Part shown: one piece after another, positions 5,118-62,977 of the stretch
Layout: each line of letters starts with the position of its first letter
How positions within the stretch are numbered: position 1 is the first letter of the stretch
Virus record (IMG/VR): IMGVR_UViG_2840054979_000001
Location: 34,281 to 98,280 of that record
Direction: 5' to 3' (one strand)
Length of the DNA: 64,000 bases
Origin: a virus
Lineage: Duplodnaviria > Caudoviricetes
Notes under the pieces: model-generated
What the model saw: only the letters and a program-made list of their open reading frames with translations
Told to the model about the DNA's origin: nothing
Databases searched by the model: none
Translations under genes and position numbers: made by a program

Positions 5118-5160
5118 CACCGGGAGGGAAGCCCGGTGCATGACGAAAGGATCCACGATG
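5118..5160 (+). promoter_or_regulatory. AGGGAAG-loop leader hairpin + RBS, copy 1
   Basis: CACCGGG-AGGGAAG-CCCGGTG...GAAAGGATCC..ATG. Confidence 0.8.
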
Positions 5161-5622
5161 ACCCGTACCCGCAATTTCGACGTCGACACGCCCGAGGGCC
5201 AGGCGAACGTCGCCCGCGCGATCGGCAAGGCAGTGGCGACCGTGATCGTCGCGATCGTCTTGGTGATCGTCGGCTGGAAGGTCGTGTCGCCGAAGCTGAA
5301 CCTGTACCGCAGCAACACCGAGAAGCAGTCGGTGATCGCCGAGCAGGAAGCCATCAGCCAGGCGGAGGTGTACGCCGCTCAGAAGCGCGTCACCGCGGCG
5401 GAGGCCGAGGCCGAGGCGCGCATCATCGAGGCCGAGTCGATCGCCGAGTCGCAGCGCATCATCTCTGAGACGTTGACGCCGGAGTATCTGACGTGGCGGT
5501 TCTACGAGGTGCTGGCCACGACGGAGAACGAGATCATCTACGTGCCGACCGAGGCGGGGCTGCCCATCTTGGAGGCCGCACGCAACACGCCGCCTGTCGT
5601 CGTGGAGTCCGACAATGGGTGA
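5158..5622 (+). CDS. single-TM protein with SPFH/band-7-like C-terminal coiled coil
   Basis: TM helix, AEAEAEA coiled coil, LTPEYLTW...IYVPTEAGLPI tail. Confidence 0.65.
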   Translation: MTRTRNFDVDTPEGQANVARAIGKAVATVIVAIVLVIVGWKVVSPKLNLYRSNTEKQSVIAEQEAISQAEVYAAQKRVTAAEAEAEARIIEAESIAESQRIISETLTPEYLTWRFYEVLATTENEIIYVPTEAGLPILEAARNTPPVVVESDNG

Positions 5623-5890
5623 CGCCCCGGTTCCGTCTGACTACGTGAAGTCGTTCATCGGTCGGACCGTGACGATCGAGTCGAGCCGCAAGGCGCACAA
5701 CGCGACGGGTCGGATCGACGGGGTCCGGTGGGATGGCTGCTCGATCCGCACGGAGCGTGGCGATTTCCCCGGCGTGGCGTTCCTGATCAAACCGGAGGAC
5801 GGCCGCCGCGCGTTCTGGTCGACGGCGTTCCCCGACTACGGCGAACCCGTCGACGCCAAGGCGAAGGAGTCGGCCGATGTCGGCGGCTGA
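5615..5890 (+). CDS. hypothetical protein
   Basis: Overlapping ORF in operon, GGAG SD. Confidence 0.55.
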   Translation: MGDAPVPSDYVKSFIGRTVTIESSRKAHNATGRIDGVRWDGCSIRTERGDFPGVAFLIKPEDGRRAFWSTAFPDYGEPVDAKAKESADVGG

Positions 5891-6254
5891 GGACTACCCG
5901 AACCTGGCGTCGATCGCCGACAACAAGCGCCACGTGAATCCGGCGATCCCGGAGCAGTGCCGTGACGCGCTCGCCGAGCTCGACAAGCTTCGTGGCGACG
6001 TCGCCAATCTGCTCGCCCAAGCCGCGACGGCGGCGAGAACGATCGCCGTCACCCGGTTCGTCGCCGACCACTGGCGCGAGGCGCTGAACGCTTCGAACAG
6101 CAGTCGGCTGTGTGCCCATCCGTTGTGCATGGTGCTCCACGCTCTCGATGGCGAGACCGACCCGGTGCAGATGGGCATCGAACACGACGCTCACGCCGCG
6201 CTCGCTGCCGTGGTGGCGCGGCCGCCGTGGCCCGCTGAGGCGGTGACCGAGTGA
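5877..6254 (+). CDS. hypothetical protein
   Basis: AAGGAG SD upstream, operon context. Confidence 0.6.
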   Translation: MSAAEDYPNLASIADNKRHVNPAIPEQCRDALAELDKLRGDVANLLAQAATAARTIAVTRFVADHWREALNASNSSRLCAHPLCMVLHALDGETDPVQMGIEHDAHAALAAVVARPPWPAEAVTE

Positions 6255-6476
6255 ACGTGGACGGCCAGACGTGGAAGTGGCCGACGCTGTGAGCGGCAAG
6301 GCCCGCGACGTGTTCTACGGCCGCCGCGGAGGCCACTGGATCGACGGCGACCTGCCCGCGCCACCATCACCGTGCGACGTGTGCGGCGGCCCGGTGTACG
6401 GCCACACCGGTTCGGGCCTCCCACTCCACCAGGACTGTCGGCCAGCGCCGCCACCAGACGCACAAGGAAGCCTTCT

Positions 6477-7298
6477 ATGACCCAACTGACCTGCCTTAGC
6501 CTCTGGCAGCCATACGCCACGCTGCTGGTCCTCGACAACCCGGCAACCGGAGACCCGTTCAAGGAGATCGAGACCCGCCCGATGCCCCCGTGGAAGACGC
6601 CCGGCTACCGGACGTTCCCCGGCGCGGCGCCGAAGCCTGGCGACTGGATCGGCATCCACGCCACCGCTCGCCACGCCCGCGAACGCGAGCTCGACCAGTT
6701 GAACAACGCGGTCGGGGACCTGCCGATCCACTTCTCGACTGAGGACACCCGTGATGGCCTGATGCTCGCGGTCCGTGACGACGAGGTCGAGACTGCGTTC
6801 GAACCCGGAGCGTGGACGTCGGGGAACACGCACGGCTATTGGGCGCCGTACAGCGCCCTGGTCGGCACGGCTCGCATCGTCGGCGCGGTCCCGATGGTCC
6901 GTCCCGGCCAACGGTCGACGCCGGAGCATGTGTCGATCGCCGAGGACGGCGACGGTGTGACGCTGCTGCGTTGGAAGTTCGACGGCGTGGGCCAGTCCGC
7001 CGATCTGGTCGAGTGTGAACCGATCGGCCACGAGTACCCGTTCGGCTGGTACGAGCCGGGCAGGTGGGCGTGGATCCTCGAGGACGCCAAGTCGGTGCTC
7101 GAACGGTGCCCGCGATGCATGGACTCTGGACGGGTGCCGGACGATCGGCCCGAGGCGCCGCGGGGCCTACACGGCCATCTGCAGGCGTGGATGCCGTGTT
7201 CTGTCTGCGAGGGCGCAGGCCGGCTCGCCCGATACCCGACGGTGGCGGGCCGGCAGGGCTGGTGGCGTCTCGATCTCGACACGCTGGCGGTGGCGTGA
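6477..7298 (+). CDS. ASCH-domain protein with C-terminal Zn ribbon
   Basis: LSLWQPYATL...KEIETR...IGIHA...GRWAWIL...GRQGWW ASCH signature; AAGGA SD. Confidence 0.8.
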   Translation: MTQLTCLSLWQPYATLLVLDNPATGDPFKEIETRPMPPWKTPGYRTFPGAAPKPGDWIGIHATARHARERELDQLNNAVGDLPIHFSTEDTRDGLMLAVRDDEVETAFEPGAWTSGNTHGYWAPYSALVGTARIVGAVPMVRPGQRSTPEHVSIAEDGDGVTLLRWKFDGVGQSADLVECEPIGHEYPFGWYEPGRWAWILEDAKSVLERCPRCMDSGRVPDDRPEAPRGLHGHLQAWMPCSVCEGAGRLARYPTVAGRQGWWRLDLDTLAVA

Positions 7299-7502
7299 TG
7301 CCCGGCGAGTTGGAGGCGTTGCGTGACTGGAAGCGCAGCGCGCTCGTGGTGCTTGCCGAGTGGGAGGCCGTGTTCGATGCTGCGGGCCGGCCGGGCCCGG
7401 TGGGACGCTCGAAGGCGGCGAACACGAACGCGGAGGTGCTGCGCCTCCGAGCGGAGAACAGCGTGCTGGCCGCTGCGCTCGCAGACCGAGGGGATGGCGA
7501 CG

Positions 7503-8971: not shown

Positions 8972-8975
8972 GCTC

Positions 8976-9052: not shown

Positions 9053-9058
9053 CCGACC

Positions 9059-18173: not shown

Positions 18174-18187
18174 TCGCCCCTGATCGC

Positions 18188-18220
18188 CGGCGAGGGAAGC
18201 GCCGACGTCGAAAGGAACCC
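18188..18220 (+). promoter_or_regulatory. AGGGAAG-loop leader, copy 2 (orphan, no start codon)
   Basis: CGGCG-AGGGAAG-CGCCG..GAAAGGAACCC. Confidence 0.7.
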
Positions 18221-18224
18221 ACCA

Positions 18225-18258
18225 GCCGTCCGGGCGGTCCCGCCGCCGCCCGGACGGC
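18225..18258 (+). terminator. 13-bp GC hairpin, probable terminator
   Basis: GCCGTCCGGGCGG / CCGCCCGGACGGC; no U-tract. Confidence 0.5.
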
Positions 18259-18304
18259 CAACCATCCGCCGCGAGGACGCGGCCTTGATAATGTCCGAGA
18301 CACA

Positions 18305-18343
18305 TGCCGGGAAGGGAAGCCCGGCACCGAAAGGAACCCGATG
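18305..18343 (+). promoter_or_regulatory. AGGGAAG-loop leader, copy 3
   Basis: TGCCGGG-AAGGGAAG-CCCGGCA..GAAAGGAACCCG-ATG. Confidence 0.85.
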
Positions 18344-20343: not shown

Positions 20344-20394
20344 TCGCCGCACACCTTGACTACTGTAGCCCTTCAGACTACAGTAGGTGTTGTG
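20344..20394 (+). promoter_or_regulatory. class I promoter/operator, leaderless
   Basis: TCGCCGCA-N4-TTGACT-N17-TACAGT-N7-GTG; perfect TACTGTAG-N9-CTACAGTA. Confidence 0.85.
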
Positions 20395-20669: not shown

Positions 20670-20713
20670 GCTGCCGGAAGGGAAGCCGACAGCACACCGA
20701 AAGGAACCCGATG
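20670..20713 (+). promoter_or_regulatory. AGGGAAG-loop leader, copy 4
   Basis: GCTGCCGG-AAGGGAAG-CCGACAGC..GAAAGGAACCCG-ATG; preceded by a C/A tract. Confidence 0.85.
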
Positions 20714-22321: not shown

Positions 22322-22366
22322 GTCGGGGAGGGAAGCCCCGACACCATCTGAAAGGAATCCGAAATG
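22322..22366 (+). promoter_or_regulatory. AGGGAAG-loop leader, copy 5
   Basis: GTCGGGG-AGGGAAG-CCCCGAC..GAAAGGAATCC..ATG. Confidence 0.85.
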
Positions 22367-32040: not shown

Positions 32041-32069
32041 CGTCACCCCGGGTCTTTACCGTCGAAATA
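32041..32069 (+). promoter_or_regulatory. class II box promoter in tandem with a class I promoter
   Basis: CGTCACCCC-N7-TACCGT. Confidence 0.5.
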
Positions 32070-32083
32070 CTTCCCGACACACC

Positions 32084-32125
32084 TTGCCAACTGTCGCCCA
32101 ATAGACTACAGTAGTAGAGGTCAAC
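32084..32125 (+). promoter_or_regulatory. class I promoter/operator
   Basis: TTGCCA-N17-TACAGT-N7-GTCAAC; ACTGTCG-N9-CTACAGT. Confidence 0.75.
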
Positions 32126-32133
32126 CAACACCA

Positions 32134-32177
32134 CCCCCGGGAAGGGAAGCCCGGGGGCATCGAAAGGAACCAACGTG
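32134..32177 (+). promoter_or_regulatory. AGGGAAG-loop leader, copy 6
   Basis: CCCCCGGG-AAGGGAAG-CCCGGGGG..GAAAGGAACC..GTG. Confidence 0.85.
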
Positions 32178-33191
32178 AGACTCCGTCGAACACTCGCGGC
32201 CGCGGCCATCGCGACCGCCATCCCGCTCGCCGTCACCGCCGGCGTAGCGTCCGCCCACACGAACGACTCGAGCGTCGACTGCTCAGGCCTGTCCGTCACC
32301 GGCTCCGCCTACTGGGAGTCGCCGATCCTGCTGTCGGCCACCGTGAACGGTGAGACGACCGAGTGGGCGGTGTCCGGTCCGAACTTCAACGCTCGGTTCC
32401 CGTTCAACTACGCCGGCGACAACACCTGGTCGTACTCGATCGACCCGCCCGGCAACGCACACGACGTGTCGCGTTCGGGTGTGACCGAGGGGTGTGGTGG
32501 CCCCGTCTTGACGACGACCACAGCGGTCCCGCCCGTCACCGACCCGCCCGAGACAGATCCGCCCGAGACAGATCCTCCCGCCACCGACCCGCCAGCCCCG
32601 GTCTACGAGTTCGACCTCGACGTCGACTGCGACGACTGGTCGATCACCGCGATCACCGACGTCGTCTTCTTCATCGACGGCGGCCAGTACTACATGCCGG
32701 CCGGTACGACCGGCTACGGGTCGCAGCTGCCCGGCGACGAGACCGCGATCACGATCAACGGTGTCACCTACAGCCTCGTTGCCGACGACTGCACGCCGCC
32801 CACCGACCCGCCGGCCACCGACCCGCCGCCGACCGACCCGCCGGCCACCGATCCCCCGGCGACCGATCCCCCGGCGACCAACCCTCCCGAGACCGATCCT
32901 CCCGCGACGGACCCCGAGCCGACGGACCCGATCGACACGACCGAACCGCCCGCGGGACCGCCCACGACGGCAACCTCCGGCGCCGGGCCGAACACGACCG
33001 CACCCAGCGAGCCGCTCCCCGCACCGACACCGACCGACCCGGGCAACACGCCGCCCGCAGATCCGGCGCCCGCGGGCGAACTGCCCGCCACCGGTACCGG
33101 CACCGTCGTGCTCGTCGGCATCGCGGGCATCGCCCTGATCGCCGGCGCACTCGCGATCGGCCTGACCCGCCTGCGCCGCCAGCCCTCCTAG
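32175..33191 (+). CDS. LPXTG sortase-anchored surface protein with TDPP repeats
   Basis: Signal peptide (ASA), two small Cys-bridged domains, TDPP(E/A/P) repeats, LPATG + TM + RLRR tail. Confidence 0.85.
   Translation: MRLRRTLAAAAIATAIPLAVTAGVASAHTNDSSVDCSGLSVTGSAYWESPILLSATVNGETTEWAVSGPNFNARFPFNYAGDNTWSYSIDPPGNAHDVSRSGVTEGCGGPVLTTTTAVPPVTDPPETDPPETDPPATDPPAPVYEFDLDVDCDDWSITAITDVVFFIDGGQYYMPAGTTGYGSQLPGDETAITINGVTYSLVADDCTPPTDPPATDPPPTDPPATDPPATDPPATNPPETDPPATDPEPTDPIDTTEPPAGPPTTATSGAGPNTTAPSEPLPAPTPTDPGNTPPADPAPAGELPATGTGTVVLVGIAGIALIAGALAIGLTRLRRQPS
32802..32930 (+). repeat. 15-bp tandem repeat encoding TDPPx (second block ~32538-32600)
   Basis: ACCGACCCGCCGGCC-type units. Confidence 0.85.
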
Positions 33192-33282
33192 CCACGCCCG
33201 CCCTGCCCGTGAACGGGCGGTCCGTGCGCCACTCAGCAGCACGGACCGCCCGTCTCGCGTCCGCCCACGAAAGGAGATCGTC

Positions 33283-33513
33283 GTGGACGCCTTCATCACG
33301 TCGAGCGCCCGCAAGCACGGCCTCTCCGACGACGACATCTGGAACTGCTACCGCAACTTCCACCTCGAGCGCTGGGATGACGACGACGAGCTCTGCTGGC
33401 GCTACGGCACCGACCTCGCCGGCAACGACCTTGAGATAGCGTTTCTGACGAGATCCGATGACGTCGACGTCATCGTTCACGCCCTGCGGGTGGCGCACCC
33501 GCCGACACCATGA
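33283..33513 (+). CDS. putative type II toxin (RelE/HigB-like actinobacterial family)
   Basis: ITSSARKHG.SDDDI...G.D..G..LEI...IVHA; GAAAGGAG SD. Confidence 0.65.
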   Translation: MDAFITSSARKHGLSDDDIWNCYRNFHLERWDDDDELCWRYGTDLAGNDLEIAFLTRSDDVDVIVHALRVAHPPTP

Positions 33514-33785
33514 AGCGATACACGCAAGCCGAGATCGACGAGATGGCCGAGAGCGGCGAGCTCGACGCGATGGTCGCACGGTCGAAGGCCCGCATCGAGG
33601 CGGGCGACCCAGCGATCCTGACGATCGACGGGCCAGCCCTCGTCGCCCTCGCCCGAGTGGCCCGCCACCCGGATGCGACCGACGAGCAGATCGACGATGC
33701 CGTCGCGGCGGCACGCAAGGCCGGGCACACCTGGACGGAGATCGAACCCGTCCTGCACGCCGCTCGGGGCCGCGTGACGGCCTGA
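33510..33785 (+). CDS. putative antitoxin
   Basis: ATGA coupling to toxin; AVAAARKAGHTWTEI HTH-start motif. Confidence 0.6.
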   Translation: MKRYTQAEIDEMAESGELDAMVARSKARIEAGDPAILTIDGPALVALARVARHPDATDEQIDDAVAAARKAGHTWTEIEPVLHAARGRVTA

Positions 33786-33798
33786 CCAGGCGCTTTTC

Positions 33799-33852
33799 TC
33801 GCCGCACCCCTTGACAACTGTAGCCGTCTAGACTACGGTTAGAGGGGTCAAC
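33799..33852 (+). promoter_or_regulatory. class I promoter/operator
   Basis: TCGCCGCA-N4-TTGACA-N17-TACGGT-N7-GTCAAC; ACTGTAG-N9-CTACGGT. Confidence 0.85.
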
Positions 33853-33860
33853 AACTCCAC

Positions 33861-33905
33861 CCCACCGGAAGGGAAGCCGGCGGGAGAGAAAGGAACCCAA
33901 CGATG
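33861..33905 (+). promoter_or_regulatory. AGGGAAG-loop leader, copy 7
   Basis: CCCACCGG-AAGGGAAG-CCGGCGGG..GAAAGGAACCC..ATG. Confidence 0.85.
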
Positions 33906-34274: not shown

Positions 34275-34294
34275 CCAACCATCCACCAACCACA

Positions 34295-34339
34295 GCCCCC
34301 GGGGAGGGAAGCCCCGGGGGCCCGAAAGGAACCCACATG
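34295..34339 (+). promoter_or_regulatory. AGGGAAG-loop leader, copy 8
   Basis: GCCCCCGGGG-AGGGAAG-CCCCGGGGGC..GAAAGGAACCC..ATG; C/A tract upstream. Confidence 0.85.
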
Positions 34340-34678
34340 CTGCAACCGCACCAAGACGCCCGGGCACGGGCGATCGACAAATTCATGCGCGGCGTCACCT
34401 CGGTCGAACCCGACGGCGACACCGTCTACGCCGCCTGGCAGGTGGCGTCGACCTGGGCCCGCTGGAACGTCGAAGACGAGCCGTGCGACTGGTCCGGCCC
34501 GCTCGACCACATGCACTCGCCGCTCGATGCCCACCCGACCGACCCGAAGGTCCGGGAGGCGTGCACGCTGGCGTCGATCGCGGCGATCCAGCTGATGAAC
34601 GCCACCCCGCATGTTGCCCTCGCGTCGATGAATGCTGAGGAACGCTGGTACGCGCTGAACGACGGGTGGGTGTCATGA
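34337..34678 (+). CDS. hypothetical early protein
   Basis: Conserved leader. Confidence 0.7.
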   Translation: MLQPHQDARARAIDKFMRGVTSVEPDGDTVYAAWQVASTWARWNVEDEPCDWSGPLDHMHSPLDAHPTDPKVREACTLASIAAIQLMNATPHVALASMNAEERWYALNDGWVS

Positions 34679-37855: not shown

Positions 37856-38197
37856 TCAGTCCGGGTCGGCGGCCGGCCAGTCCGACTGCACGACCAGCTG
37901 GGCTCGGCCTTTCGACGGCCATGTCCAGCGTGCACCGGACCCGAACGCGACGACGATCCTGACGTCGTAGGTCCCCTGGTCGGCGTCGACGAGCCACGAG
38001 CCGAGCTCGATCCGCACCGTGCGCGCGTCTGCGTCGACGAGCTCGCCGGCGAGCTCGACCCGTGGGTCGAGGCGGCCCCGGCGGACTTCGCCGGTCACGG
38101 ACACGACCGACTCGAGCGCGGTGATCCCGTCGAGTCGGGCGTCGATCGACGCTCCGATGTCGCCAGCGGTCCGCGTCCATGTCCCGTTCACTGGCAT
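37856..38197 (-). CDS. small Ig/BppU-N-like virion-associated protein
   Basis: GGAGG SD; G.YDVRI.V.F..G..WTWP beta-sandwich pattern. Confidence 0.6.
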   Translation of the reverse strand: MPVNGTWTRTAGDIGASIDARLDGITALESVVSVTGEVRRGRLDPRVELAGELVDADARTVRIELGSWLVDADQGTYDVRIVVAFGSGARWTWPSKGRAQLVVQSDWPAADPD

Positions 38198-41100
38198 TGG
38201 CAGCCTCCTTCGAGTGTGGCGATCACGTAGTCGGGGTCGAGCGTCTGGATCATCAGCGGACCGCAGATCGTCGGCTCGCTGCCGAACACCCACGCCGCGT
38301 CGCGGACGGTGACGACCACGACGGTCGGCTCGCCGCCCCAGGTCGCTGCCCCTGGGGTCCAGACGCCGTCGTCCGGTGCGGCCTCGACGAGCACCGGGTC
38401 GATGATCCAGGTCTGCGGCTCCGCTCCCGTGGCCCACGGCCCATCGTCGACTGTGACGGTGACGGCGGCCGCATCGACGTGCCAGGTCGTTGCGCCGGCC
38501 GTCCAGACGCCGTCCTCGGCCGCAACGACGACAGTGACCGGCTCGGCGGTCCAGGCCGCTTCACCGGACACCCAGGCACCGTCGTCAGCAGTGACGACGA
38601 CCGCAGCCGGGTCGCCCGACCACGTCGTCGGCCCCGCTGTCCAGACGCCGTCGTCGACGGTGACGGTCACGATGATCGGTTCGGTCGTGAACGCAGCGAG
38701 CGTCACCCAGGCGCCGTCGGCTACGGCCACCGCGACCCCGGCCGCATCGCCGGTCCATGTCACCGCCGTGGTCCACGCGTCGTCGACGGCCGTCACCTCG
38801 ATCACGGCCGGGTCGATGTCCCAGGTTTGCGGCTCGGGGTCCGGCACGCTCGCCGGCATGGTGACCGACCAGCCGCGGGCGATCAACGCCGCACGGTCGT
38901 CGTCGGTCGCGGCCGCCGGCGCGGCAGCGTCGTCCATGCGAAGGTTGCCGTTCGACGCGCCGAGCGTGTTCAGCGTCTCGAGGTACAGGCTCGCCGTGGC
39001 GCTGTCGATTGGGTTGGAGTGCGCGAGGACCGAACGCAGCAGCGGCGAGATCGGGGCGTCGTAGGTCGTGATGCCGGTGTCCCACACCCACCACTGCTCG
39101 ACGACCGGCAGCTGCGACATGGGCAGGTGCTGGGTGACGTTCTGCACCCGGACGCAGTAGTGCCACAGCGCCAGCATCGGTGTGTCGCTGACGAAGCCGA
39201 TCGTCGCGGCGCCCGACTGCTGGTTGGCGCACCGAAGGTCCTGCAGCGTGCCGGCGAGCGGTGTCAGGTCGATGGTGCCGGACAGGTCGTTCTGCTCCAT
39301 GCACAGCCGGATCATGCTGTCGCAGCCGGTGAAGTCGATCGACGTGACCTCGGCCTGGTAGCACTCGACGTGCGTCAACGCTGCGAGGCCGCTGACGTCG
39401 AGGTGGCCGGTCAGCCCGGATTGGGCGGCGAAGAAGTGCTTGAGGCCTGTGCAATGGGTGAGGCCGGTGATGCCGGTGAGCGACTGCGGCGCCCAGTTGA
39501 ATGTCGCGGGCAGGTTGTCGCGGCCGGAGTCCTGCGTGTTGTCGTAGCCGAGGTTGATGAACTCGACGTCGCCGATGGCCTGTGCGCCGCCGTCGAGCAC
39601 CCGCATGACGACCACGCCGTCGACGGGAGCGGTGATCGACGGTGTGATACCGGTGGCGAGTAGGGCGTCGCTGGAGTCGCGCCACTCGACCGTGGCGGTC
39701 GACCCCGCTACGAGTCCGATCCACGGTGCGAACGTTCCGGAGACACCCGTCATCGTGACGCCGGCTGGCGCTGCTGCGGTGACGAGCGGGTCGATCCAGT
39801 ACCAGGCGTCCGTTGTGGCGAACGGGACCGTTGATCCGGCAGTGTCGCCGTTGTAGTGCGAGGTCGGCTGCGTCGCCTCCAGCAGACCGAGCCTCGACGG
39901 CTGCTGGTCAACGAAGTAGGCGGCCCATCGGGCGAGGTCGAAGTTCGCTGATGCCTCAGCCGAGATCCAGATGCACCGAGGAACCCCGGCCGTCAGGGCG
40001 ACGGGCTCGTCGAATAGGTAGGTGGACCAGCCTGGCGACGGGAACGGTCCGGAGTAGCCAGCGAGAGTGGCCACGGCGGCTGCTCCGCCATCGATCGGGC
40101 CGACGTAGATCGTCTCGGTGATCGTCTCGGCCGGCGCTGCCGGGCCCACGTGCCAGGTGCGCACGCCGTGCAGGTGCACGTCGACGGTCGGCGTGAACGC
40201 GAAGCCGCGCCGGTGGGTGGCGTTCCACCACTGAATGTGCTGGCCGTCGCCGCCGGCACTGACGTGGATCGGGCCGACGTCATCGACGGTGAGGAACGAG
40301 TCGTACGCCGGCGCCGGCGGCGCCCCGGGCGTCGCGCTGACTGCCGTCGACGCCGGGCCGGTTCCGACCTCGTTGATCGCCGACACCCGGTACCAGTACG
40401 TCGAACCGTTGACCACGTCGGTGTCGAGGTAGGTCGTCGCGGTGCTCGTGCCGTCGGCGAGCGTCGACCACGCACCGGGCGCTCCGGCGACATCGGGTGC
40501 CCGTTCGACGACGTAGTCGGTGATCGGCGATCCGCCGTCGGCCGGCGTCGTCCAGGCGAGCTCGACTTCGGCGTCGCCCGGCGTCGCCACCAGGCCGGTG
40601 ACCTGTGCTGGCGGGTCAGGCTCCGGTGGCAGGTCGCCGGCCTCGAAGTTGTCGGCGATACCGCGCATCGCCGAATCGGAGAAGAAGCCCCAGCCGAACC
40701 CGACCTTGGTGCCGGTGAGCGGCTCGGACGGATCGGTGTACGTGATGACCGGTGTGTCGAGGTCGTCGACGTAGGCCCGAAGCTCGGTCGCCGTGCCGTC
40801 GAGGTCTCTCGCCTCCAGGCGGAACCGGTGGATGCCGGTCAGGTCGCCGATCACCGCCGATGTCAGATCGGAACCCGCCCCGCCTCCGGTGTTCTTGCGA
40901 AGCCAGAGAGTGGTGTAGGCGGGCCAGTAGTACAGCATGTAGCCGTCGAGCCAGGGGAACTCGAACACGCCGTTGGATCGCAGTGTGCACGACGTGGTCT
41001 CACCGTTGTCGCAGTCCATGTCGACCTGCGAGTACTGGTTCAGGGTGACGCAGTCGCCTGCCCACACGAGTTGATCGCGTCCGTTGCCGGTCGTCGTGAC

Positions 41101-42336
41101 CGCTTGGCTGTTGACACGGGTAACGCCGGAGCCGTTGACCAGGATCCAGTGGGGCGCGAGGGGACCGTCGCCGGCGAAGTCGTCGGAGAACGCTGCGAGC
41201 GGCGGCGGGTCGGGCACGAAGTCGAACGTTTGGGCGTAGCCGAGATCGCCTGGCTCGGACTGCCACCACACCACGAACCGGGTGTCGCTGATCTTCTTGA
41301 TATAGGGGTCGACGCCTCCGGTGAACACGGCGACCTGACTGCCGGGGTCTGTCGTCACCGCCCATGTCGTCGAGTCGACGGTGATGACGTCGACGAAGAT
41401 GTCCGAGGCGGCGTCGCGGCGGGCCCGCACCACGCTGTAGACGCCGGCGACCTCGGACATCAACGTCATGGTCTGCGGCCGTTCGGCCGACAGCGTGAAC
41501 GCCGAGGCAGGCAGACTCGTCGGCGTGCCGATAGCGGTGATCGCCCAGGTCGCCAGGTCGACCTCGAGCACCTGACCGAACGTCGCGCCTGTGGTGGCAT
41601 TCGTCCACACGGCGAGGAAGTGGTTGGCGTCGAGGCGTTGCAGCGAGTTCTGGCGGCCCTCGGTGGTGTCGAACTCGAGGACCGACAGTTCGCTGATCTG
41701 GTAGGTGGACGCGTCGACGTTGAGCACCTTGGCGAACCCGTCGTTGTTGGCGCCGTCGTAGGTGACGAGGTACTTCGTGTCGTCGTCGTTGATCTTCGAG
41801 ACGGCCGGGCCCATGCCGTTGGTCGTGTCGAACTCGAACGAGTGGAGCGTCGACGGCACGCCGGCCGTCACCTGGATCGTGGATGCCCAGCCGTCGTTGG
41901 CGTCGCCGCGGTACACGACGAGGAAGATGTCGCCGGTCACGACCTCGACGTCCTGGGAGCTCGTGAAGGCCGGGTCGTACTCCAACGCCGGGCCGGTCGA
42001 CGTGATGTCCCATGTCGAGTCGTTGACGGTCAACACCTGGGCGAACCCGTCATTGTCTACCGACCGGTAAAAGACCACCGGCTGATAGGGCGTTGCACCG
42101 ACGGCGACGTAGGGCCGGGACTCCGCTGCGCCGATCGGGTCGAACTCGAACGGGGTGCCGACCTGGGTGATCGTCCCCGCGGCGTCGATGTGGTGGATGA
42201 CGGCGAAGCCATCGGACCCGACGACCTGGTAGGCGACGACCCAGTGCGTGTCGTCGAGCCGTGCGGCGTTCGGCGTCATGCCGACTTCGGTGCCCGACCA
42301 GTTCGACGGGGTGCCGATCGGCTCTACGGTCGCCAT
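38188..42336 (-). CDS. 1382-aa multidomain fibre/adhesin-like protein (propeller repeats, lectin-like, FN3, LRR, C-terminal W-repeats)
   Basis: Repeated 'DGFA.V...EFD' blades; FN3 (LAWTTP.DGGSPITDY...YWYRVSAIN.VG.G); LRR; ~23-aa W..DP..V.VT..DG.W repeats. Confidence 0.8.
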   Translation of the reverse strand: MATVEPIGTPSNWSGTEVGMTPNAARLDDTHWVVAYQVVGSDGFAVIHHIDAAGTITQVGTPFEFDPIGAAESRPYVAVGATPYQPVVFYRSVDNDGFAQVLTVNDSTWDITSTGPALEYDPAFTSSQDVEVVTGDIFLVVYRGDANDGWASTIQVTAGVPSTLHSFEFDTTNGMGPAVSKINDDDTKYLVTYDGANNDGFAKVLNVDASTYQISELSVLEFDTTEGRQNSLQRLDANHFLAVWTNATTGATFGQVLEVDLATWAITAIGTPTSLPASAFTLSAERPQTMTLMSEVAGVYSVVRARRDAASDIFVDVITVDSTTWAVTTDPGSQVAVFTGGVDPYIKKISDTRFVVWWQSEPGDLGYAQTFDFVPDPPPLAAFSDDFAGDGPLAPHWILVNGSGVTRVNSQAVTTTGNGRDQLVWAGDCVTLNQYSQVDMDCDNGETTSCTLRSNGVFEFPWLDGYMLYYWPAYTTLWLRKNTGGGAGSDLTSAVIGDLTGIHRFRLEARDLDGTATELRAYVDDLDTPVITYTDPSEPLTGTKVGFGWGFFSDSAMRGIADNFEAGDLPPEPDPPAQVTGLVATPGDAEVELAWTTPADGGSPITDYVVERAPDVAGAPGAWSTLADGTSTATTYLDTDVVNGSTYWYRVSAINEVGTGPASTAVSATPGAPPAPAYDSFLTVDDVGPIHVSAGGDGQHIQWWNATHRRGFAFTPTVDVHLHGVRTWHVGPAAPAETITETIYVGPIDGGAAAVATLAGYSGPFPSPGWSTYLFDEPVALTAGVPRCIWISAEASANFDLARWAAYFVDQQPSRLGLLEATQPTSHYNGDTAGSTVPFATTDAWYWIDPLVTAAAPAGVTMTGVSGTFAPWIGLVAGSTATVEWRDSSDALLATGITPSITAPVDGVVVMRVLDGGAQAIGDVEFINLGYDNTQDSGRDNLPATFNWAPQSLTGITGLTHCTGLKHFFAAQSGLTGHLDVSGLAALTHVECYQAEVTSIDFTGCDSMIRLCMEQNDLSGTIDLTPLAGTLQDLRCANQQSGAATIGFVSDTPMLALWHYCVRVQNVTQHLPMSQLPVVEQWWVWDTGITTYDAPISPLLRSVLAHSNPIDSATASLYLETLNTLGASNGNLRMDDAAAPAAATDDDRAALIARGWSVTMPASVPDPEPQTWDIDPAVIEVTAVDDAWTTAVTWTGDAAGVAVAVADGAWVTLAAFTTEPIIVTVTVDDGVWTAGPTTWSGDPAAVVVTADDGAWVSGEAAWTAEPVTVVVAAEDGVWTAGATTWHVDAAAVTVTVDDGPWATGAEPQTWIIDPVLVEAAPDDGVWTPGAATWGGEPTVVVVTVRDAAWVFGSEPTICGPLMIQTLDPDYVIATLEGGCQCQ

Positions 42337-60793: not shown

Positions 60794-60836
60794 TGCGTCT
60801 CACGTATCATGATGTGCGACCCGAAGGAGGTCCGAC

Positions 60837-61262
60837 ATGACGTTCACCGTTTGGCTCCGCGACACCGCTGAGCGTGCCATCTCCACGATCGTCCAAGCGG
60901 CGATCGTGTTCGTCATCGCCGCCGGCGCCGTCCTCGACGACGCCGAATGGTGGAAGGGCCTCGTCGCCGCATTGATACCCGGCGCCTTCAACGTCATCAA
61001 GCAGGCGTTCGAATCGTGGATCCCGACACCGACCAGCTGGGCAGCCGACATGGCCGTCCGGGCATTCTGGACCTTCGTCATCACGCTCGCCGGCGCCGCC
61101 ACCGCCGCCGGCTTCGAACTGTTCTCCACGTCGGCCTGGCAGACCATCGCCCTCGTCGCCCTGACCGCCGCTCTCGCCATCGCCAAGGCCGGCCTCGCGG
61201 CACGTTGGGCCACCGACGAGACCGCACGCCTCACCCCGGCGAGCTTCGCCAAGGCAGCGTGA
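60837..61262 (+). CDS. holin, tandem r1t-like domains
   Basis: DTAERAISTIVQA and DMAVRAFWTFV; four TM segments; AAGGAGG SD. Confidence 0.75.
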   Translation: MTFTVWLRDTAERAISTIVQAAIVFVIAAGAVLDDAEWWKGLVAALIPGAFNVIKQAFESWIPTPTSWAADMAVRAFWTFVITLAGAATAAGFELFSTSAWQTIALVALTAALAIAKAGLAARWATDETARLTPASFAKAA

Positions 61263-61459
61263 TGGCCAGGCCAGCGCGTTCCTGCTGCGGCGCTCCGCCC
61301 GCGCCGGCAACCACCCCTCCGGCGCGGGCGGCGACAGTCGAGTACGTCGTCATGGGCACGGCCAACCGGATGTTCGACGCCGTCTTCCCCACCCTCGACG
61401 AGGCCAAGGCCCACCAGGCAATCCACGGCGGCAAGGTGCGGTCGCGATCGGTGGCGTAG
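61262..61459 (+). CDS. small hypothetical protein
   Basis: TGATG coupling; CCG N-terminus and F.T..EA.A....GG.V pattern. Confidence 0.55.
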   Translation: MARPARSCCGAPPAPATTPPARAATVEYVVMGTANRMFDAVFPTLDEAKAHQAIHGGKVRSRSVA

Positions 61460-61608
61460 CCCTCGGTAGAGTGGTTCTCAGCCGAGCAGTCCTACTTCCC
61501 AATTTGGATTGTCAGGCCAGAGGCCCCCGCAGCCGGTCCGGGATTTCCGGGTGTTGAGCTCCGCTCCACCCCCGGGTTCCTTTCGACGGACCGCCACTGC
61601 GGGGGCCT
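61460..61608 (+). ncRNA. candidate structured small RNA complementary to the leader motif
   Basis: Three stem-loops with G-U pairs favouring the + strand; CUUCCC loop; CGGGUUCCUUUCGACG. Confidence 0.5.
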
Positions 61609-61649
61609 TGCCTTCTGTCGTCGAATCAGCTACAGTTATAGAGGTCAAC
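61608..61649 (+). promoter_or_regulatory. class I promoter/operator
   Basis: TTGCCT-N17-TACAGT-N7-GTCAAC. Confidence 0.75.
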
Positions 61650-61655
61650 CACCAC

Positions 61656-61694
61656 TCCGGGAAGGGAAGCCCGGACGCTGAAAGGAACCCGATG
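61656..61694 (+). promoter_or_regulatory. AGGGAAG-loop leader, copy 9
   Basis: TCCGGG-AAGGGAAG-CCCGGA..GAAAGGAACCCG-ATG. Confidence 0.85.
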
Positions 61695-62165
61695 ACGATC
61701 ATCCAGATCGACCTCGACGTCGACGACCCCGCAGTCCTCGACCGAGTGCTCCTCCCAGGAGTCACGATGCCGGACCCCGACGACTGCATCCCTCCGATCA
61801 CCGTCGCCGACGAGCTCGTCACGCTCGTGCGCGACGCCGCGTACGAAGCGGTCGAACCGTTCGACGGCATCGACGTCGCCGATGTCCGCACCCGACGCCG
61901 CGGCGGCGTGAAGCTCGAGGTCGCCTACGAGTCGGTGACCGGACGGGTCGTGCTCGCCGTCGTGCGCGACGGCCACCAGGTCGGCACGGTCGTCCAGACC
62001 GCCGAGTACCGATGGAAGGCCGAGGCCCGCCGCTACGACCAGCCTCGGCTCGGCCAGCAGGCGCACGCGCTCGGCCAGGTGTTCTCCACGTCGGCGCTCG
62101 CCGCGGCCGCCGTCGTCGAAGCACACGACCGGCTCGGCGAAGTCACCACGATTGGAGCGTTCTGA
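61692..62165 (+). CDS. hypothetical early protein
   Basis: Conserved leader. Confidence 0.7.
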   Translation: MTIIQIDLDVDDPAVLDRVLLPGVTMPDPDDCIPPITVADELVTLVRDAAYEAVEPFDGIDVADVRTRRRGGVKLEVAYESVTGRVVLAVVRDGHQVGTVVQTAEYRWKAEARRYDQPRLGQQAHALGQVFSTSALAAAAVVEAHDRLGEVTTIGAF

Positions 62166-62350
62166 TGGACCCCGACGCCGCCATCAGGCTGATGCACGAC
62201 ACCGACCACGACCCCGAGAACAGTCGCGCCGCAGCCGAAGGCCTGCTCGACTGGCTTCGCCGTGACGGCTTCCCGCCAGCCGGCATGACCGCCGACCAGG
62301 CGTCGATCGACGCAGGCCAGGTGCTCGCCGAACTCGGGATGCCGGCATGA
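62165..62350 (+). CDS. small conserved actinophage protein
   Basis: MDPDA...L.DWL..GFPP pattern. Confidence 0.65.
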   Translation: MDPDAAIRLMHDTDHDPENSRAAAEGLLDWLRRDGFPPAGMTADQASIDAGQVLAELGMPA

Positions 62351-62928
62351 CGCTGTTCGACGACGTCCGCTCGATCATCGACGAGGTGATGGGCGGCGAC
62401 CCGCTCAACGACGCCGACGAAGGTCCGATCGGCGTCGACCGGGCCGCCGAACTCGTCCACCAGTACCACCGGCTCGGCGAAGACATCGCCGAAGCCGCCG
62501 ACATGTACCAGCGGGCGATCGACAAGCTCGTCGACGCCCGCAACGGCCACCTCGAACCGCTCGAGGCCGAGCGCGACCACATCGAGACGGTGCTGCGCCT
62601 GTGGCACGCCGCCCGCTACGCCGAGGACGGCAAGGCGACGATCAAGCTGCCGACCGGCACGCTGTCGTCGTCGAAGGCCCAGGACGCGTGGACCTACCAC
62701 GACGAGTCGGCGTTCATCACCTGGGCCAAGGACAACGCTCCCGACGCCCTCCGCCAGCCCGAGCCGCCGCCGATCCAGGTCGCCAAGACCGAAGCCCGCA
62801 AGTCGCTCGAGGCGCTGATCGCGATCAACGACGACGGCACCGTCGTCGACCGGTCGACCGGTGAGATCGTCCCCGGCCTCCGTGTCACCCCTGGCGGGTA
62901 CCGCGGACGTCACTACCACGTCAAGTAA
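62347..62928 (+). CDS. Mu Gam-like host-nuclease inhibitor
   Basis: Coiled coil then KATIKLPTGTL...W, K...K, TGEIVPGL.V. Confidence 0.75.
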   Translation: MTLFDDVRSIIDEVMGGDPLNDADEGPIGVDRAAELVHQYHRLGEDIAEAADMYQRAIDKLVDARNGHLEPLEAERDHIETVLRLWHAARYAEDGKATIKLPTGTLSSSKAQDAWTYHDESAFITWAKDNAPDALRQPEPPPIQVAKTEARKSLEALIAINDDGTVVDRSTGEIVPGLRVTPGGYRGRHYHVK

Positions 62929-62933
62929 CCCGT

Positions 62934-62977
62934 CGGCGGGGAGGGAAGCCCCGCCGCCATCGAAAGGAACCCTCATG
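62934..62977 (+). promoter_or_regulatory. AGGGAAG-loop leader, copy 10
   Basis: CGGCGGGG-AGGGAAG-CCCCGCCG..GAAAGGAACCC..ATG. Confidence 0.85.

What the first reader, a model, noticed from the sequence alone, without database searches (positions are those of the whole stretch)
5118..62977. Ten dispersed covarying RNA leader hairpins with an invariant (A)AGGGAAG loop and extended GAAAGGA(A)CC RBS: a candidate translational regulon
Seen in sequence: copies start at 5118, 18188, 18305, 20670, 22322, 32134, 33861, 34295, 61656 and 62934. Stem sequences differ (CACCGGG/CCCGGTG, CGGCG/CGCCG, GTCGGGG/CCCCGAC, GCCCCCGGGG/CCCCGGGGGC, CGGCGGGG/CCCCGCCG), but pairing is kept. The 7-8 nt loop is invariant, which points to an RNA structure rather than a DNA site. 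GAAAGGA follows 2-7 nt after the stem and continues as ACC in 8 of 10 copies (TCC and ATCC in the other two). GAAAGGA RBSs without a hairpin (15972, 33269) continue as GGAG instead. Several copies have an unstructured C/A tract upstream. They precede early/accessory genes (SPFH-like, wHTH, RtcB, LPXTG protein, Sak4-like ATPase) and never virion genes. Inference: a shared post-transcriptional switch. Both loop (AGGGA) and SD (AAGGA) fit the ANGGA pattern of CsrA/RsmA sites, 15-20 nt apart, but I found no CsrA in the window. It recalls mycobacteriophage start-associated sequences, but is structured.
Basis: partly seen in the sequence, partly recalled or inferred. Interest (0 to 1): 0.9.

Follow-up and report, generated by a model that had tools for sequence, protein, structure and literature searches.

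The report
Repeated phage mRNA leader hairpin
A 99-kb prophage places the same small RNA hairpin, with a fixed purine loop, just ahead of the ribosome-binding site of about sixteen non-virion genes, and an unrelated phage uses the same hairpin, so it is probably an undescribed signal controlling phage mRNA translation or survival.

Summary
Seven more lie just upstream of the window, giving 17 copies, all on the + strand. All sit inside one 98.9-kb prophage (G000:C23:129061-227973), and none is elsewhere in the 6.2-Mb genome.

Each copy has a 6-10 bp GC stem whose outer pairs covary, a loop (A)AGGGAAG, 2-7 nt, then GAAAGGA(ACC), then 5-10 nt to ATG. Covariation is strong: 92-97% of cells are paired against 64-67% in shuffles. 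No Rfam family matches.

The main new result concerns an unrelated 90-kb provirus (G522). It shares only DnaN and a DNA methylase with this prophage, yet carries 15 same-strand hairpins with the same loop, different stems and a different SD context. The conserved unit is therefore GG-(A)AGGGAAG-CC, not the "extended RBS".

The genome has no CsrA, and Pfam found no RNA-binding family in the prophage. The closest known things are the start-associated sequences (SAS/ESAS) of cluster K mycobacteriophages, whose function is still unknown. The hairpin core matches the SAS consensus at 10 of 13 positions.

My best reading is a post-transcriptional leader element acting on translation or mRNA survival, read by an unidentified partner. 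I score it a new variant of a known kind, interest about 0.6.

The parts
5118..5160 (+). Copy c08: stem CACCGGG/CCCGGTG, loop AGGGAAG, GAAAGGA+TCC, ATG at 5158. Downstream is a 154-aa membrane protein (PHROG 'protease' family).
18185..18219 (+). Copy c09, an orphan: hairpin plus GAAAGGAACC with no start codon after it. A strong GC hairpin follows.
18305..18343 (+). Copy c10: stem TGCCGGG/CCCGGCA, loop AAGGGAAG, ATG at 18341. Downstream is a 133-aa protein with a weak MarR_2 hit.
20670..20713 (+). Copy c11: 8-position stem with one mismatch. It is intercistronic, lying after a TGA and a C/A tract. ATG at 20711.
22322..22366 (+). Copy c12: stem GTCGGGG/CCCCGAC, GAAAGGA+ATCC, ATG at 22364. Downstream is RtcB.
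32084..32112 (+). Promoter-like TTGCCA-17-TACAGT. Its spacer holds the inverted repeat CTGTCGCC...GACTACAG. This is one of 8 such copies in the prophage.
32134..32177 (+). Copy c13: 8-bp stem, loop AAGGGAAG, GTG at 32175. Downstream is a 338-aa LPATG-anchored, Pro/Thr-repeat surface protein.
33811..33839 (+). Promoter-like copy (TTGACA ... CTACGGT) upstream of c14.
33861..33905 (+). Copy c14: ATG at 33903; downstream is a 123-aa ORFan.
34295..34339 (+). Copy c15: 10-bp stem, loop AGGGAAG, ATG at 34337; downstream is a 113-aa ORFan.
61608..61636 (+). Promoter-like copy upstream of c16. It is conserved in the metagenome contig L211.
61656..61694 (+). Copy c16: 6-bp stem, ATG at 61692. In the 84%-identical contig L211 the hairpin and SD are identical, and only the spacer between them differs.
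62934..62977 (+). Copy c17: 8-bp stem, ATG at 62975. Downstream is an AAA_24/Sak4-like protein (weak hits).
20356..20384 (+). Promoter-like copy that is NOT followed by the GGGAAG hairpin. A different small hairpin follows it.
61575..61584 (-). The only minus-strand GAAAGGAACC. It has no GGGAAG hairpin. The site is conserved in L211.

Best explanation
It is a cis-acting RNA leader module of a temperate actinobacterial phage. It sits in the 5' UTR or intercistronic gap of each independently initiated early or accessory cistron.

Anatomy of the module, 5' to 3':
- A G-poor C/A-rich single-stranded tract.
- A stable GC hairpin. Its two closing G-C pairs and its purine loop (A)AGGGAAG are fixed, while the outer pairs drift by compensatory change.
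- 2-7 nt later, an open purine SD (GAAAGGA).
- A C/A-rich spacer (ACC...), then ATG.

Proposed action. It works after transcription. The hairpin keeps the SD region unpaired, and it is read sequence-specifically by a partner that sets how well these mRNAs are translated or how long they survive.

Two versions of the partner:
1. The module works through general host machinery. The hairpin blocks 5'-end-dependent decay by RNase J and RNase E. Its SD-like purine loop may dock 30S subunits, as in the STAB-SD or polypurine 5' stabilisers of Bacillus. I put about 0.25 on this.
2. A dedicated RNA-binding factor, not yet identifiable by homology, uses the loop as an operator next to the SD. I put about 0.25 on this.

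Shown: the repeat, its structure, strand and position, its restriction to phages, and an open SD.

Inferred: RNA-level action, the existence of a partner, and any effect on translation or stability.
For: Structure and position:
- All 17 copies are on the + strand and confined to the prophage.
- Sixteen of the 17 are followed by a start codon 5-10 nt after the SD; 15 of those 16 are ATG.
- Covariation with an invariant asymmetric loop.
- The stems are stable, with whole-leader MFE of -11 to -27 kcal/mol, and in the MFE folds the SD is largely unpaired.
- The predicted unpaired probability of the SD is 0.63 for the 16 motif genes against 0.40 for 73 other prophage genes (Mann-Whitney p = 3.6e-5).
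- The 14 nt before the hairpin hold 28 G in 238 bases (12%), against 33% G in the prophage as a whole.

The same hairpin in other phages:
- G522 has 15 same-strand copies with the same loop. Stems are 5-13 bp and mostly different. Each is followed by an SD and a start codon.
- Only DnaN (26% identity) and a DNA methylase (30%) are detectably shared between the two phages.
- Single copies sit between a -10-like box and an SD in other high-GC viral contigs.
- In the 84%-identical contig L211 the hairpin and SD are unchanged, while the spacer between them changed.

For version 1:
- The host has RNase J (495 bits) and RNase E/G (347 bits).
- The loop can form 6 pairs with the 16S 3' tail.
- In five viral contigs the same sequence lies directly before an ATG, like a plain RBS.

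Absence elsewhere:
- No Rfam match.
- None found in the 150 family genomes searched.
- No cluster of copies in the 400 phylum genomes searched.
Against: - There is no expression or 5'-end data. The only listed holder is the DNA run that may be the source of this assembly.
- No partner is identified. There is no CsrA, and no RNA-binding Pfam family among the 133 ORFs.
- Against version 1: the loop is a mediocre anti-SD partner at -5.3 kcal/mol, and 70% of all purine 8-mers pair at least as well. Ribosome docking alone therefore does not explain its invariance.
- Also against version 1: a purely structural stabiliser would not need a fixed loop.
- Against version 2: the two phages that share the loop share no candidate protein.
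- The host chromosome has no copy outside the prophage, so a host regulator with targets of its own is unlikely.
- The gene calls and start sites of the 'other' genes come from my own GC3-based heuristic and include errors.
- The alignment used was fitted to the model.
Confidence: 0.5

Rival explanations
1. It is a transcription-level element of the nut/boxB type or a Rho-related signal. The hairpin with a purine loop, flanked by C-rich G-poor tracts, would be read on the nascent RNA by an antiterminator. Alternatively it would modulate Rho loading, so that RNA polymerase reads through into each cistron.
For: Six of the 17 copies here lie directly downstream of a repeated promoter-like sequence, as do 7 of the 15 in G522. 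C-rich G-poor tracts lie next to the hairpin: upstream in this prophage, and on both sides in G522. That the known lambda nut site is a hairpin with a purine-rich loop between C-rich segments is recalled, not checked in any call.
Against: There are 17 and 15 copies per genome, and 11 of the 17 here are intercistronic, whereas one site per operon would do. Thirty-one of the 32 copies in the two phages are followed by an SD and a start codon (for G522 from the printed tails and my SD-and-start script). No T run follows the stem, so it is not an intrinsic terminator. No N-like or Q-like protein was found, although such proteins are small and divergent.
Confidence: 0.15
2. It is a passive initiation cassette. 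The hairpin would be only an insulator that keeps the ribosome-binding site open. The identical loops would reflect copying of one cassette by recombination within and between phages, not recognition by any partner.
For: The SD is more open in motif genes. The capsid-related phages G518 and G520 repeat their own extended SD, GAAAGGAAACCACCA: GAAAGGAAAC occurs 14 times in G518 and 11 in G520, and the GGAAACCACC core 26 and 20 times. Only 2 copies in G520 have a hairpin just upstream. This shows that this phage lineage multiplies RBS cassettes. Repeated promoters provide sites for recombination.
Against: If the copies were merely recent duplicates, the stems would be alike too. Instead, the four outer stem pairs have changes on both sides, while the loop is unchanged in 16 of 17 copies here and 13 of 15 in G522. 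The loop is also kept in a phage with no other nucleotide similarity and almost no protein similarity.
Confidence: 0.15
3. It is a CsrA/RsmA-type operator. A CsrA dimer would bridge the GGA in the loop and the GGA in the SD and block the ribosome.
For: AGGGA in a hairpin loop and AAGGA in the SD both fit A-N-GGA. The two lie about 17-23 nt apart. That this spacing suits CsrA bridging is recalled, not checked in any call.
Against: No CsrA domain reaches the family cut-off in the six-frame search of the whole genome. The best hit has E 0.165, 15 bits against a 27-bit cut-off, and is not in the prophage. In G522 the distance from hairpin to SD, and the SD sequence itself, both differ.
Confidence: 0.03
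4. It is a DNA-level site, such as a cruciform or a single-strand hairpin used for replication, recombination, packaging or a hairpin-type promoter.
For: Structure is conserved while sequence varies in the arms, as in some single-stranded-DNA sites. All copies have one orientation.
Against: Every copy lies in a leader on the sense strand of the gene it precedes, with a tight link to an SD and a start codon. Six copies already have a sigma-70-like promoter upstream. No recombinase or nickase is associated with them.
Confidence: 0.05

Closest known systems
[quoted passage not shown] Sources: Pope et al. 2011, PMC3203893, passages read; Adephagia paper, PMC11373665, passages read; PMC12699233, passages read.
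   Same: - SAS is a short asymmetric repeat in one orientation, with 11-19 copies per genome. It lies 3-9 bp before start codons, is biased to ATG, is restricted to non-structural genes with larger intergenic gaps, and is conserved beyond what pairs with 16S rRNA. Its function is still unknown.
- About half of the SAS copies have an upstream ESAS, which the 2024 paper reads as a SigA-like promoter with an inverted repeat. Here, 6 of 17 copies have a repeated promoter-like sequence with an inverted repeat.
- The 7-nt-loop form of the hairpin core, GGGAGGGAAGCCC, matches the SAS consensus GGGATAGGAGCCC at 10 of 13 positions, including the GGG...CCC ends.
   Different: - The ten window copies miss the family criterion of at most 2 mismatches. 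Three-mismatch hits in the window are at chance level overall: 22 against 18.35 expected.
- Here the GC-clamped purine loop is extended into a 6-10 bp covarying stem. It sits upstream of a separate SD instead of being the SD.
- Pope et al. found that departures in the ESAS repeats do not support RNA pairing. Here pairing is strongly supported.
- The host and the phage are different. RtcB is the only cluster K gene I compared, at about 50% identity.
5' mRNA stabilisers of Gram-positive bacteria: STAB-SD (Agaisse & Lereclus 1996) and the polypurine 5' stabiliser (Hue, Cohen & Bechhofer 1995). I saw only the titles, in the reference list of PMC3997798. Their content is recalled.
   Same: A purine-rich SD-like sequence and/or a stem-loop lies near the 5' end of an mRNA, separate from the real RBS. 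The host has the 5'-exonuclease RNase J.
   Different: No stability data exist here. The loop is not an optimal anti-SD partner. The element is repeated 17 times and is also intercistronic. Those stabilisers have no fixed hairpin loop, as far as I recall.
Translational operators that are hairpins just upstream of an SD, such as phage T4 gene 43, E. coli thrS, and CsrA targets (recalled; not checked in any call).
   Same: A hairpin with a sequence-specific loop lies a few nucleotides upstream of the SD, where a bound protein would meet the 30S platform.
   Different: Those are single operators for a known autoregulatory protein. Here there are many copies, no known protein, and no CsrA.
Extended-SD repeats of the capsid-related viral contigs G518 and G520 (IMG/VR).
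   Same: They are large actinophage-like genomes (major capsid protein 53% identical). A repeated GAAAGGAA(A)CC-type RBS precedes many genes on one strand.
   Different: The GGGAAG hairpin is absent: model R2 found nothing at E <= 1 in 366 kb. In G520 only 2 copies have a small hairpin, with a GAGGA or AAGGA loop.

Membership tests
Cluster K SAS | Match to GGGATAGGAGCCC with at most 2 mismatches (criterion of Pope et al. 2011, quoted in PMC12699233) | tested here: not met
   window only. There are no hits with 2 or fewer mismatches. Four copies (5122, 22326, 34302, 62939) match with 3 mismatches through the hairpin core. The total of 3-mismatch hits is at chance level: 22 against 18.35.
Cluster K SAS | One orientation; 11-19 copies; 3-9 bp before start codons; ATG bias; non-structural genes only | tested here: met
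   There are 17 copies, all on the + strand. The SD ends 5-10 nt before the start. ATG is used in 15 of 16. Downstream genes include ParB-like, DnaN, RtcB, an LPXTG protein and ORFans, and none is a virion gene.
Cluster K ESAS | A conserved ~46-bp SigA-like promoter with an inverted repeat upstream of about half of the SAS copies | tested here: inconclusive
   An analogous repeat of different sequence, cTTGmC-CTGTAGCC-N5-GACTACAGT, occurs 8 times on the + strand. Six of these precede a hairpin copy. There is no sequence homology to ESAS, and promoter activity is untested.
CsrA/RsmA regulon | A CsrA protein encoded in the genome | tested here: not met
   PF02599 best E 0.165, 15 bits against a cut-off of 27, on contig C2.
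CsrA/RsmA regulon | GGA in a hairpin loop plus a second GGA at the SD | tested here: met
   loop AGGGA and SD AAGGA in all 17 copies.
Any Rfam 15 family | Score at or above the gathering threshold | tested here: not met
   One search gave no match in the window. One search, in E-value mode on 32050-34400, gave 3 weak minus-strand hits and none for the motif on the + strand; one of them (Lambda_thermo, 16.7 bits against a 50-bit threshold) lies on the opposite strand across copy c14.
Intrinsic terminator | A GC hairpin followed by a T run | tested here: not met
   The stem is followed by C/A-rich spacers and GAAAGGA. One search reports only minus-strand terminator-like readings of the same hairpin.
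nut/boxB-type antitermination site | A boxA-like partner sequence, a phage N-like protein, and one site per operon | tested here: inconclusive
   No boxA search was possible without a consensus from a call. No N-like protein was seen in Pfam or PHROGs. The copy number (17) exceeds the number of promoter-like sites (8).
STAB-SD / polypurine 5' stabiliser | An SD-like purine sequence near the mRNA 5' end that pairs with 16S rRNA and is not the initiation site | tested here: inconclusive
   The loop pairs with the 16S tail at -5.3 kcal/mol, no better than 70% of purine 8-mers. Its 5'-proximal position is inferred only from promoter-like sequences. RNase J is present. The effect on stability cannot be tested here.

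The most novel reading that the evidence does not exclude
The hairpin GG-(A)AGGGAAG-CC is the operator of an as yet unknown sequence-specific RNA-binding factor. It defines a post-transcriptional early-gene regulon that unrelated actinobacterial phages share. The cluster K start-associated sequence, a GGG...CCC-clamped purine heptamer, would be a minimal form of the same device. Solving this one would then explain a phage signal that has been unexplained since 2011.
Probability: 0.25. Interest if true: 0.8.

Novelty: new variant of a known kind. Interest (0 to 1): 0.6.

Why it matters
Repeated start-associated sequences have been known in actinobacteriophages since 2011. The 2024 and 2025 papers I read still call their role unknown.

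This element is a structured relative of them that can be put to the test:
- It has a covariation-supported hairpin with a fixed loop.
- It has 17 natural variants in one prophage and 15 in an unrelated one.
- It has a clear separation between hairpin and SD.

That gives a ready-made mutational series for reporter, toeprint and pull-down experiments. If a partner is found, it would reveal how large temperate phages of high-GC Gram-positive bacteria set apart a class of their own mRNAs. It could also provide a compact expression or stability tag for actinobacterial genetics. If the hairpin turns out to be only an insulator, it is still a useful natural RBS cassette, but of modest interest.

Tried and rejected
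Searches and tests that led nowhere or were rejected:

- Closer relatives by DNA. Megablast and blastn of window pieces and of one leader against 50,697 phage records gave no match or only chance hits. G522 also had no match.
- Exact loop-plus-SD pattern scans.
  - Viral contigs gave 22 hits. The best hairpin flank was 5 bp (L049, a Streptomyces contig, and L074). I treated all as chance or doubtful.
  - The metagenome collection gave 103 hits, of which only L211 is a true relative.
- Orthologues of the motif genes in the capsid relatives G518-G521. Only 2 weak protein matches appeared, so no orthologous leaders could be compared.
- Pseudoknot between the loop GGG and the ACCC after the SD. 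Rejected, because it gives only 2-3 pairs. An ACC after the SD is also kept in G520, where most copies have no hairpin.
- Antisense partner. CTTCCCT does not occur on the + strand of C23:130001-232000, which contains the prophage; the minus strand was not scanned.
- rRNA mimicry or pairing beyond the anti-SD. Nothing convincing was found in the 16S-23S region. A resemblance of some copies to helix 45 (shared CCGGAAGG) holds for only some copies and was dropped.
- 6C sRNA (RF01066). Nothing above threshold; the control genome also failed, so this search is weak.
- Loop as an optimised second SD. Not supported.
- Shared phage protein between the prophage and G522. Only DnaN and a methylase appeared, even at E <= 1.
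- RNA evidence. No RNA holder was listed; two metatranscriptome runs of the same study hold next to none of the sampled words.
- Intergenic-gap statistics were too noisy to use, because the start sites come from my own heuristic gene caller.

Tools and files not available:
- Supplementary files of the SAS papers (Figures S3 and S4 and the tables of PMC3203893; the tables of PMC12699233) could not be seen. They may hold variant SAS forms closer to this hairpin.
- included genomes flagged as unpublished (G527, G543, G571, G609, G638, G664, G688, G748, G821, G837, G844). The statement that no other phylum genome shows a cluster rests partly on them.

Full report
**1. The observation**

- AGGGAAGC occurs 11 times in the 64-kb window, always on the + strand, against 0.94 expected. 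None of 100 shuffles reached 11.
- The extra hit at 423 is an ordinary SD with no hairpin.
- GAAAGGA occurs 13 times against 2.82 expected.

The window is G000:C23:163544-227543 of a 6.2-Mb, 73-contig assembly. In the whole assembly the loop-plus-SD pattern has 14 forward matches, 0 reverse matches and 0 control matches, all on contig C23. A looser pattern found 22 matches genome-wide. Twenty-one of these lie in C23:140-240 kb on the + strand, and they collapse to 17 distinct copies. Seven copies lie upstream of the window.

**2. Anatomy**

Across the 17 copies:
- GGGAAG is present in 17 of 17, AGGGAAG in 16 of 17.
- The loop is 7 or 8 nt.
- The stem has 6-10 pairs, with one internal mismatch in 4 copies.
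- The stem-to-SD spacer is 2-7 nt.
- GAAAGGA is present in 17 of 17, and GAAAGGAACC in 15 of 17.
- The SD ends 5-10 nt before the start codon.
- The start codon is ATG in 15 of 16 and GTG in 1 of 16.
- One copy (window 18185-18219) has no start codon and is followed by a large GC hairpin.

The 14 nt upstream of the stem are G-poor and C/A-rich: 28 G in 238 bases, against 33% G in the prophage. Each leader folds into the hairpin in its MFE structure, with whole-leader MFE of -11 to -27 kcal/mol, and in most folds the SD is largely unpaired.

**3. Is it a structure?**

Three tests agree.
- On the model-fitted alignment of 16 copies, 92.3% of cells pair against 66.9% in shuffles. Five of 8 pairs have changes on both sides. 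The covariation score is 0.487 against 0.097, reached by 0 of 500 shuffles. All slid registers pair at 53% or less.
- RNAalifold predicts the same helix.
- A gap-free alignment cut at fixed offsets from GGGAAG was not fitted to any model. It holds 19 copies of the 8-nt-loop class from two phages. It gives 96.7% against 64.2% and a score of 0.711 against 0.155. Four of 6 pairs have double changes, and the two innermost G-C pairs are invariant.

The conserved block is therefore GG-(A)AGGGAAG-CC on a drifting outer stem. Variable arms around an asymmetric fixed centre, always on the sense strand, argue for RNA rather than a duplex-DNA site.

**4. Setting**

The copies lie in a prophage bounded by a 51-bp direct repeat at C23:129061 and 227923. 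The right repeat overlaps a tRNA-Lys(CTT) gene. The prophage is 98.9 kb.

Genes identified:
- Left end: a tyrosine integrase and a divergent HTH_3 repressor-like gene.
- Elsewhere: three ParB_N-domain proteins (one with the ParB HTH domain), DnaN, an SNF2 helicase, the large terminase, a sugar- or DNA-modification gene set, RtcB, portal, a MuF-like protein, major capsid, major tail, tape measure, lysis genes, Mu Gam-like and Sak4-like proteins.

The motif precedes:
- a ParB-like gene, DnaN and RtcB;
- an LPATG-anchored surface protein;
- a membrane protein (PHROG 'protease');
- a weak wHTH and a weak AAA_24/Sak4-like protein;
- eight ORFans.

None of these is a recognisable virion gene.

Six of the 17 copies lie about 20 nt downstream of a repeated promoter-like sequence, cTTGmC-CTGTAGCC-N5-GACTACAGT. 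This sequence occurs 8 times on the + strand, and its spacer holds an inverted repeat. The consensus scan picks one copy as TTGCCA-17-TACAGT. The other 11 hairpin copies are not preceded by this promoter-like sequence; where the context is readable, they lie 5-20 nt after a stop codon.

**5. Distribution**

- Rfam has no match, either at gathering thresholds or in permissive mode.
- Model R1 (hairpin plus SD) finds 15 of the 17 copies in the genome. It finds one unrelated hairpin-plus-GAAAGGAACC at C23:21522, with a different loop.
- R1 finds nothing at E <= 0.01 in 150 other genomes of the same family.
- The 12-mer GGRAGGGAAGCC occurs 13 times forward and 0 reverse in G000. In 400 genomes of the phylum it never exceeds 6 on one strand, which is similar to the reversed-pattern control. 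Some of these genomes are flagged unpublished.
- One 1,075-bp metagenome contig (L211) is 84% identical to window 60844-61927. It keeps the promoter-like sequence almost unchanged (3 substitutions) and the hairpin and SD exactly, while the spacer between hairpin and SD differs.
- The nearest capsid relatives are four IMG/VR contigs at 52-57% identity. They lack the hairpin: R2 finds nothing at E <= 1 in 366 kb.
- Two of those relatives (G518, G520) repeat their own extended SD, GAAAGGAAACCACCA, before many genes. In promoter-proximal genes the same GGAAACCACC core follows directly after an ATG.

**6. The key comparison**

I scanned IMG/VR for exact 15-16-mers of the hairpin core. This found one 90-kb provirus, IMGVR_UViG_2896028454_000001 (handle G522, GC 0.69), with many copies.

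G522 holds 15 hairpins, all on the + strand, and 13 of them lie in 39.7-49.2 kb.
- Loops: AAGGGAAG in 10, AGGGAAG in 3, AGGGGAAG in 1, AAGGGAAA in 1.
- Stems: 5-13 bp, mostly different from one another.
- Each is followed by a C/A-rich tract, an SD such as AGAAAGG or AGGAGG, another C/A-rich spacer, and a start codon.
- Seven are preceded by a different repeated promoter-like sequence, GGTTAGAGTTCGTGYAATAAT.
- The downstream genes are DnaN, a C5 DNA methylase, a DUF3560 protein and ORFans.

The two phages share only DnaN (26% identity) and a methylase (30%) at E <= 1e-4. Nothing more convincing appears at E <= 1.

Single copies sit between a -10-like box and an SD in a few other high-GC viral contigs: G523, G524, L379; G525, L347; G526; L438, L439. 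In five contigs the same sequence lies directly before an ATG, as a plain RBS would.

The unit under selection is therefore the hairpin with its loop. The GAAAGGAACC "extended RBS" is particular to this prophage.

**7. What reads the loop?**

- No CsrA domain reaches the cut-off in the genome.
- Pfam on the 133 ORFs I called in and around the prophage shows no RNA-binding family. Most small ORFs have no family at all.
- No antisense partner for the loop exists on the + strand of C23:130001-232000; the minus strand was not scanned.
- The 16S 3' tail, read from contig C26, pairs perfectly with GAAAGGA (-8.7 kcal/mol). It can form six pairs with the loop (-5.3 kcal/mol). However, 70% of all purine 8-mers pair at least as well. 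The loop is therefore SD-like but not optimised for the anti-SD.
- The host encodes RNase J and RNase E/G.
- The SD of motif genes is predicted to be more open than that of other prophage genes: 0.63 against 0.40, p = 3.6e-5. The caveat is that the other start sites come from my heuristic gene caller.

**8. Mechanism**

The anatomy fits a post-transcriptional leader module. A stable hairpin sits one helical turn upstream of an open SD, in G-poor surroundings, at every cistron that must initiate on its own. I give 0.5 to this class of explanation and split it about evenly between two versions.
- Version 1 works through general host machinery. The hairpin protects against 5'-end-dependent decay, and its purine loop may dock 30S subunits, as in STAB-SD and the polypurine 5' stabilisers. 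I saw those papers only as titles in the reference list of PMC3997798.
- Version 2 is an operator for a dedicated RNA-binding factor.

Strict invariance of the loop, and its absence from the host chromosome, favour a specific phage-linked reader. The lack of any shared protein between the two phages favours host machinery. Neither version is shown.

Rivals:
- a nut- or Rho-type transcription element (0.15);
- a passive RBS cassette whose loop is kept only by copying (0.15);
- a DNA-level site (0.05);
- CsrA proper (0.03).

**9. Comparison with what is known**

The closest known things are the SAS and ESAS of cluster K mycobacteriophages.

SAS is a 13-bp asymmetric repeat with these properties (PMC3203893, PMC11373665 and PMC12699233, passages read):
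- one orientation and 11-19 copies per genome;
- 3-9 bp before mostly ATG starts of non-structural genes;
- conservation beyond the SD;
- function unknown in the 2011, 2024 and 2025 papers.

ESAS is now read as a SigA-like promoter with an inverted repeat. That parallels the promoter-like repeat found here.

The sequence criterion for SAS is not met. However, the 7-nt-loop hairpin core matches the SAS consensus at 10 of 13 positions, including the GGG...CCC ends that Pope et al. had noted. This is a lead, not a test: three-mismatch hits are at chance level in the window overall.

Unlike ESAS, for which the authors found no support for RNA pairing, this hairpin covaries. I therefore file it as a new variant of a known kind, not as a member of the SAS family.

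**10. Verdict**

This is a real, phage-specific, covariation-supported RNA hairpin family not described in Rfam. Thirty-two copies lie in two unrelated proviruses, and a few single copies lie elsewhere. Its function is unknown but testable.

Interest is 0.6. It would be higher if a specific reader exists, and lower if the hairpin is only an insulator.

Noticed in passing
G000:C23:129061-129111 and 227923-227973 (just outside the window; the right copy is about 380 nt past its end): A 51-bp direct repeat bounds a 98.9-kb prophage integrated at the 3' end of a tRNA-Lys(CTT) gene. A tRNA-Trp gene lies inside the prophage's right end, at C23:227630-227704.
   Followed up: partly
window 20356-20384, 32084-32112, 33811-33839, 61608-61636 (plus C23:142501, 154150, 155753, 162564): There are eight + strand copies of a promoter-like repeat, cTTGmC-CTGTAGCC-N5-GACTACAGT-(N)-TAGAGGTCAAC. 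The inverted repeat CTGTAG/CTACAG lies between the -35 and -10 boxes and is probably an operator for a phage repressor. Two copies (C23:155753 and window 20363) are followed by a different small hairpin instead of the GGGAAG one.
   Followed up: partly
window 61575-61584, minus strand: This is the only minus-strand GAAAGGAACC. It is followed by a GTG-started reading frame of about 25 codons. The frame's length and stop codon are kept in the 84%-identical metagenome contig L211. It may be a small divergent gene.
   Followed up: no
window 18185-18260: An orphan motif copy has no start codon. It is followed by a 12-bp GC hairpin (CCGTCCGGGCGG...CCGCCCGGACGG). It may be the remnant of a lost gene, or a leader for something non-coding.
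   Followed up: no
L009-L010 (prophage upstream of the window); individual ORFs not mapped: Among the prophage ORFs upstream of the window, Pfam reports sugar-modification families: Polysacc_synt_2, epimerase, WbqC, FemAB-like, GNAT, methyltransferases, a weak PIG-L hit and a TET-associated glycosyltransferase (TAGT). This hints at DNA hypermodification or cell-surface modification by the phage.
   Followed up: no
window 32175-33191: A prophage-encoded surface protein has a signal peptide, TDPPA-type Pro/Thr repeats, and an LPATG sortase signal followed by a membrane anchor. It is expressed from its own promoter-like repeat plus hairpin leader, and looks like a lysogenic-conversion gene.
   Followed up: partly
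window 33283-33513 and 33543-33785: A 76-aa ORF hits a PHROG labelled 'toxin' (E 9e-6). It is followed by an 80-aa HTH protein. This may be a toxin-antitoxin-like pair. Its RBS is a hairpin-less GAAAGGAG.
   Followed up: no
window 38188-41937, minus strand: A 1,249-aa ORF has no PHROG hit, and no Pfam family in the region's tallies is attributable to it. It lies opposite in orientation to almost everything else, between the early genes and the capsid gene.
   Followed up: no
G520 (L184-L189) and G518 (L299-L306): The capsid-related viral contigs repeat GGAAACCACC 20-26 times. It appears both as part of an extended SD (GAAAGGAAACCACCA-ATG) and directly after an ATG that lies 8 nt past a -10-like box (ATGGAAACCACC...). 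The same core therefore seems to serve both leadered and apparently leaderless starts.
   Followed up: partly
G519 (L293-L296), about 53.8-58.2 kb: An 11-fold repeat, mostly at a 138-nt period, turned out to be a coding repeat (...IYER.G..FTKL.DP...). It is not a regulatory motif.
   Followed up: yes
G000:C23:21522-21555, minus strand (host DNA, 140 kb from the prophage): A single host leader has a 9-bp GC hairpin with a different loop, followed by GAAAGGAACC and an ATG. It is the only match at E < 0.01 to the hairpin-plus-SD model outside the prophage.
   Followed up: no
window 32132-32159, minus strand: Read on the opposite strand, the hairpin followed by the complement of the C/A tract (G/T-rich) scores as terminator-like in the consensus scan. 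The leaders might also stop antisense transcription.
   Followed up: no
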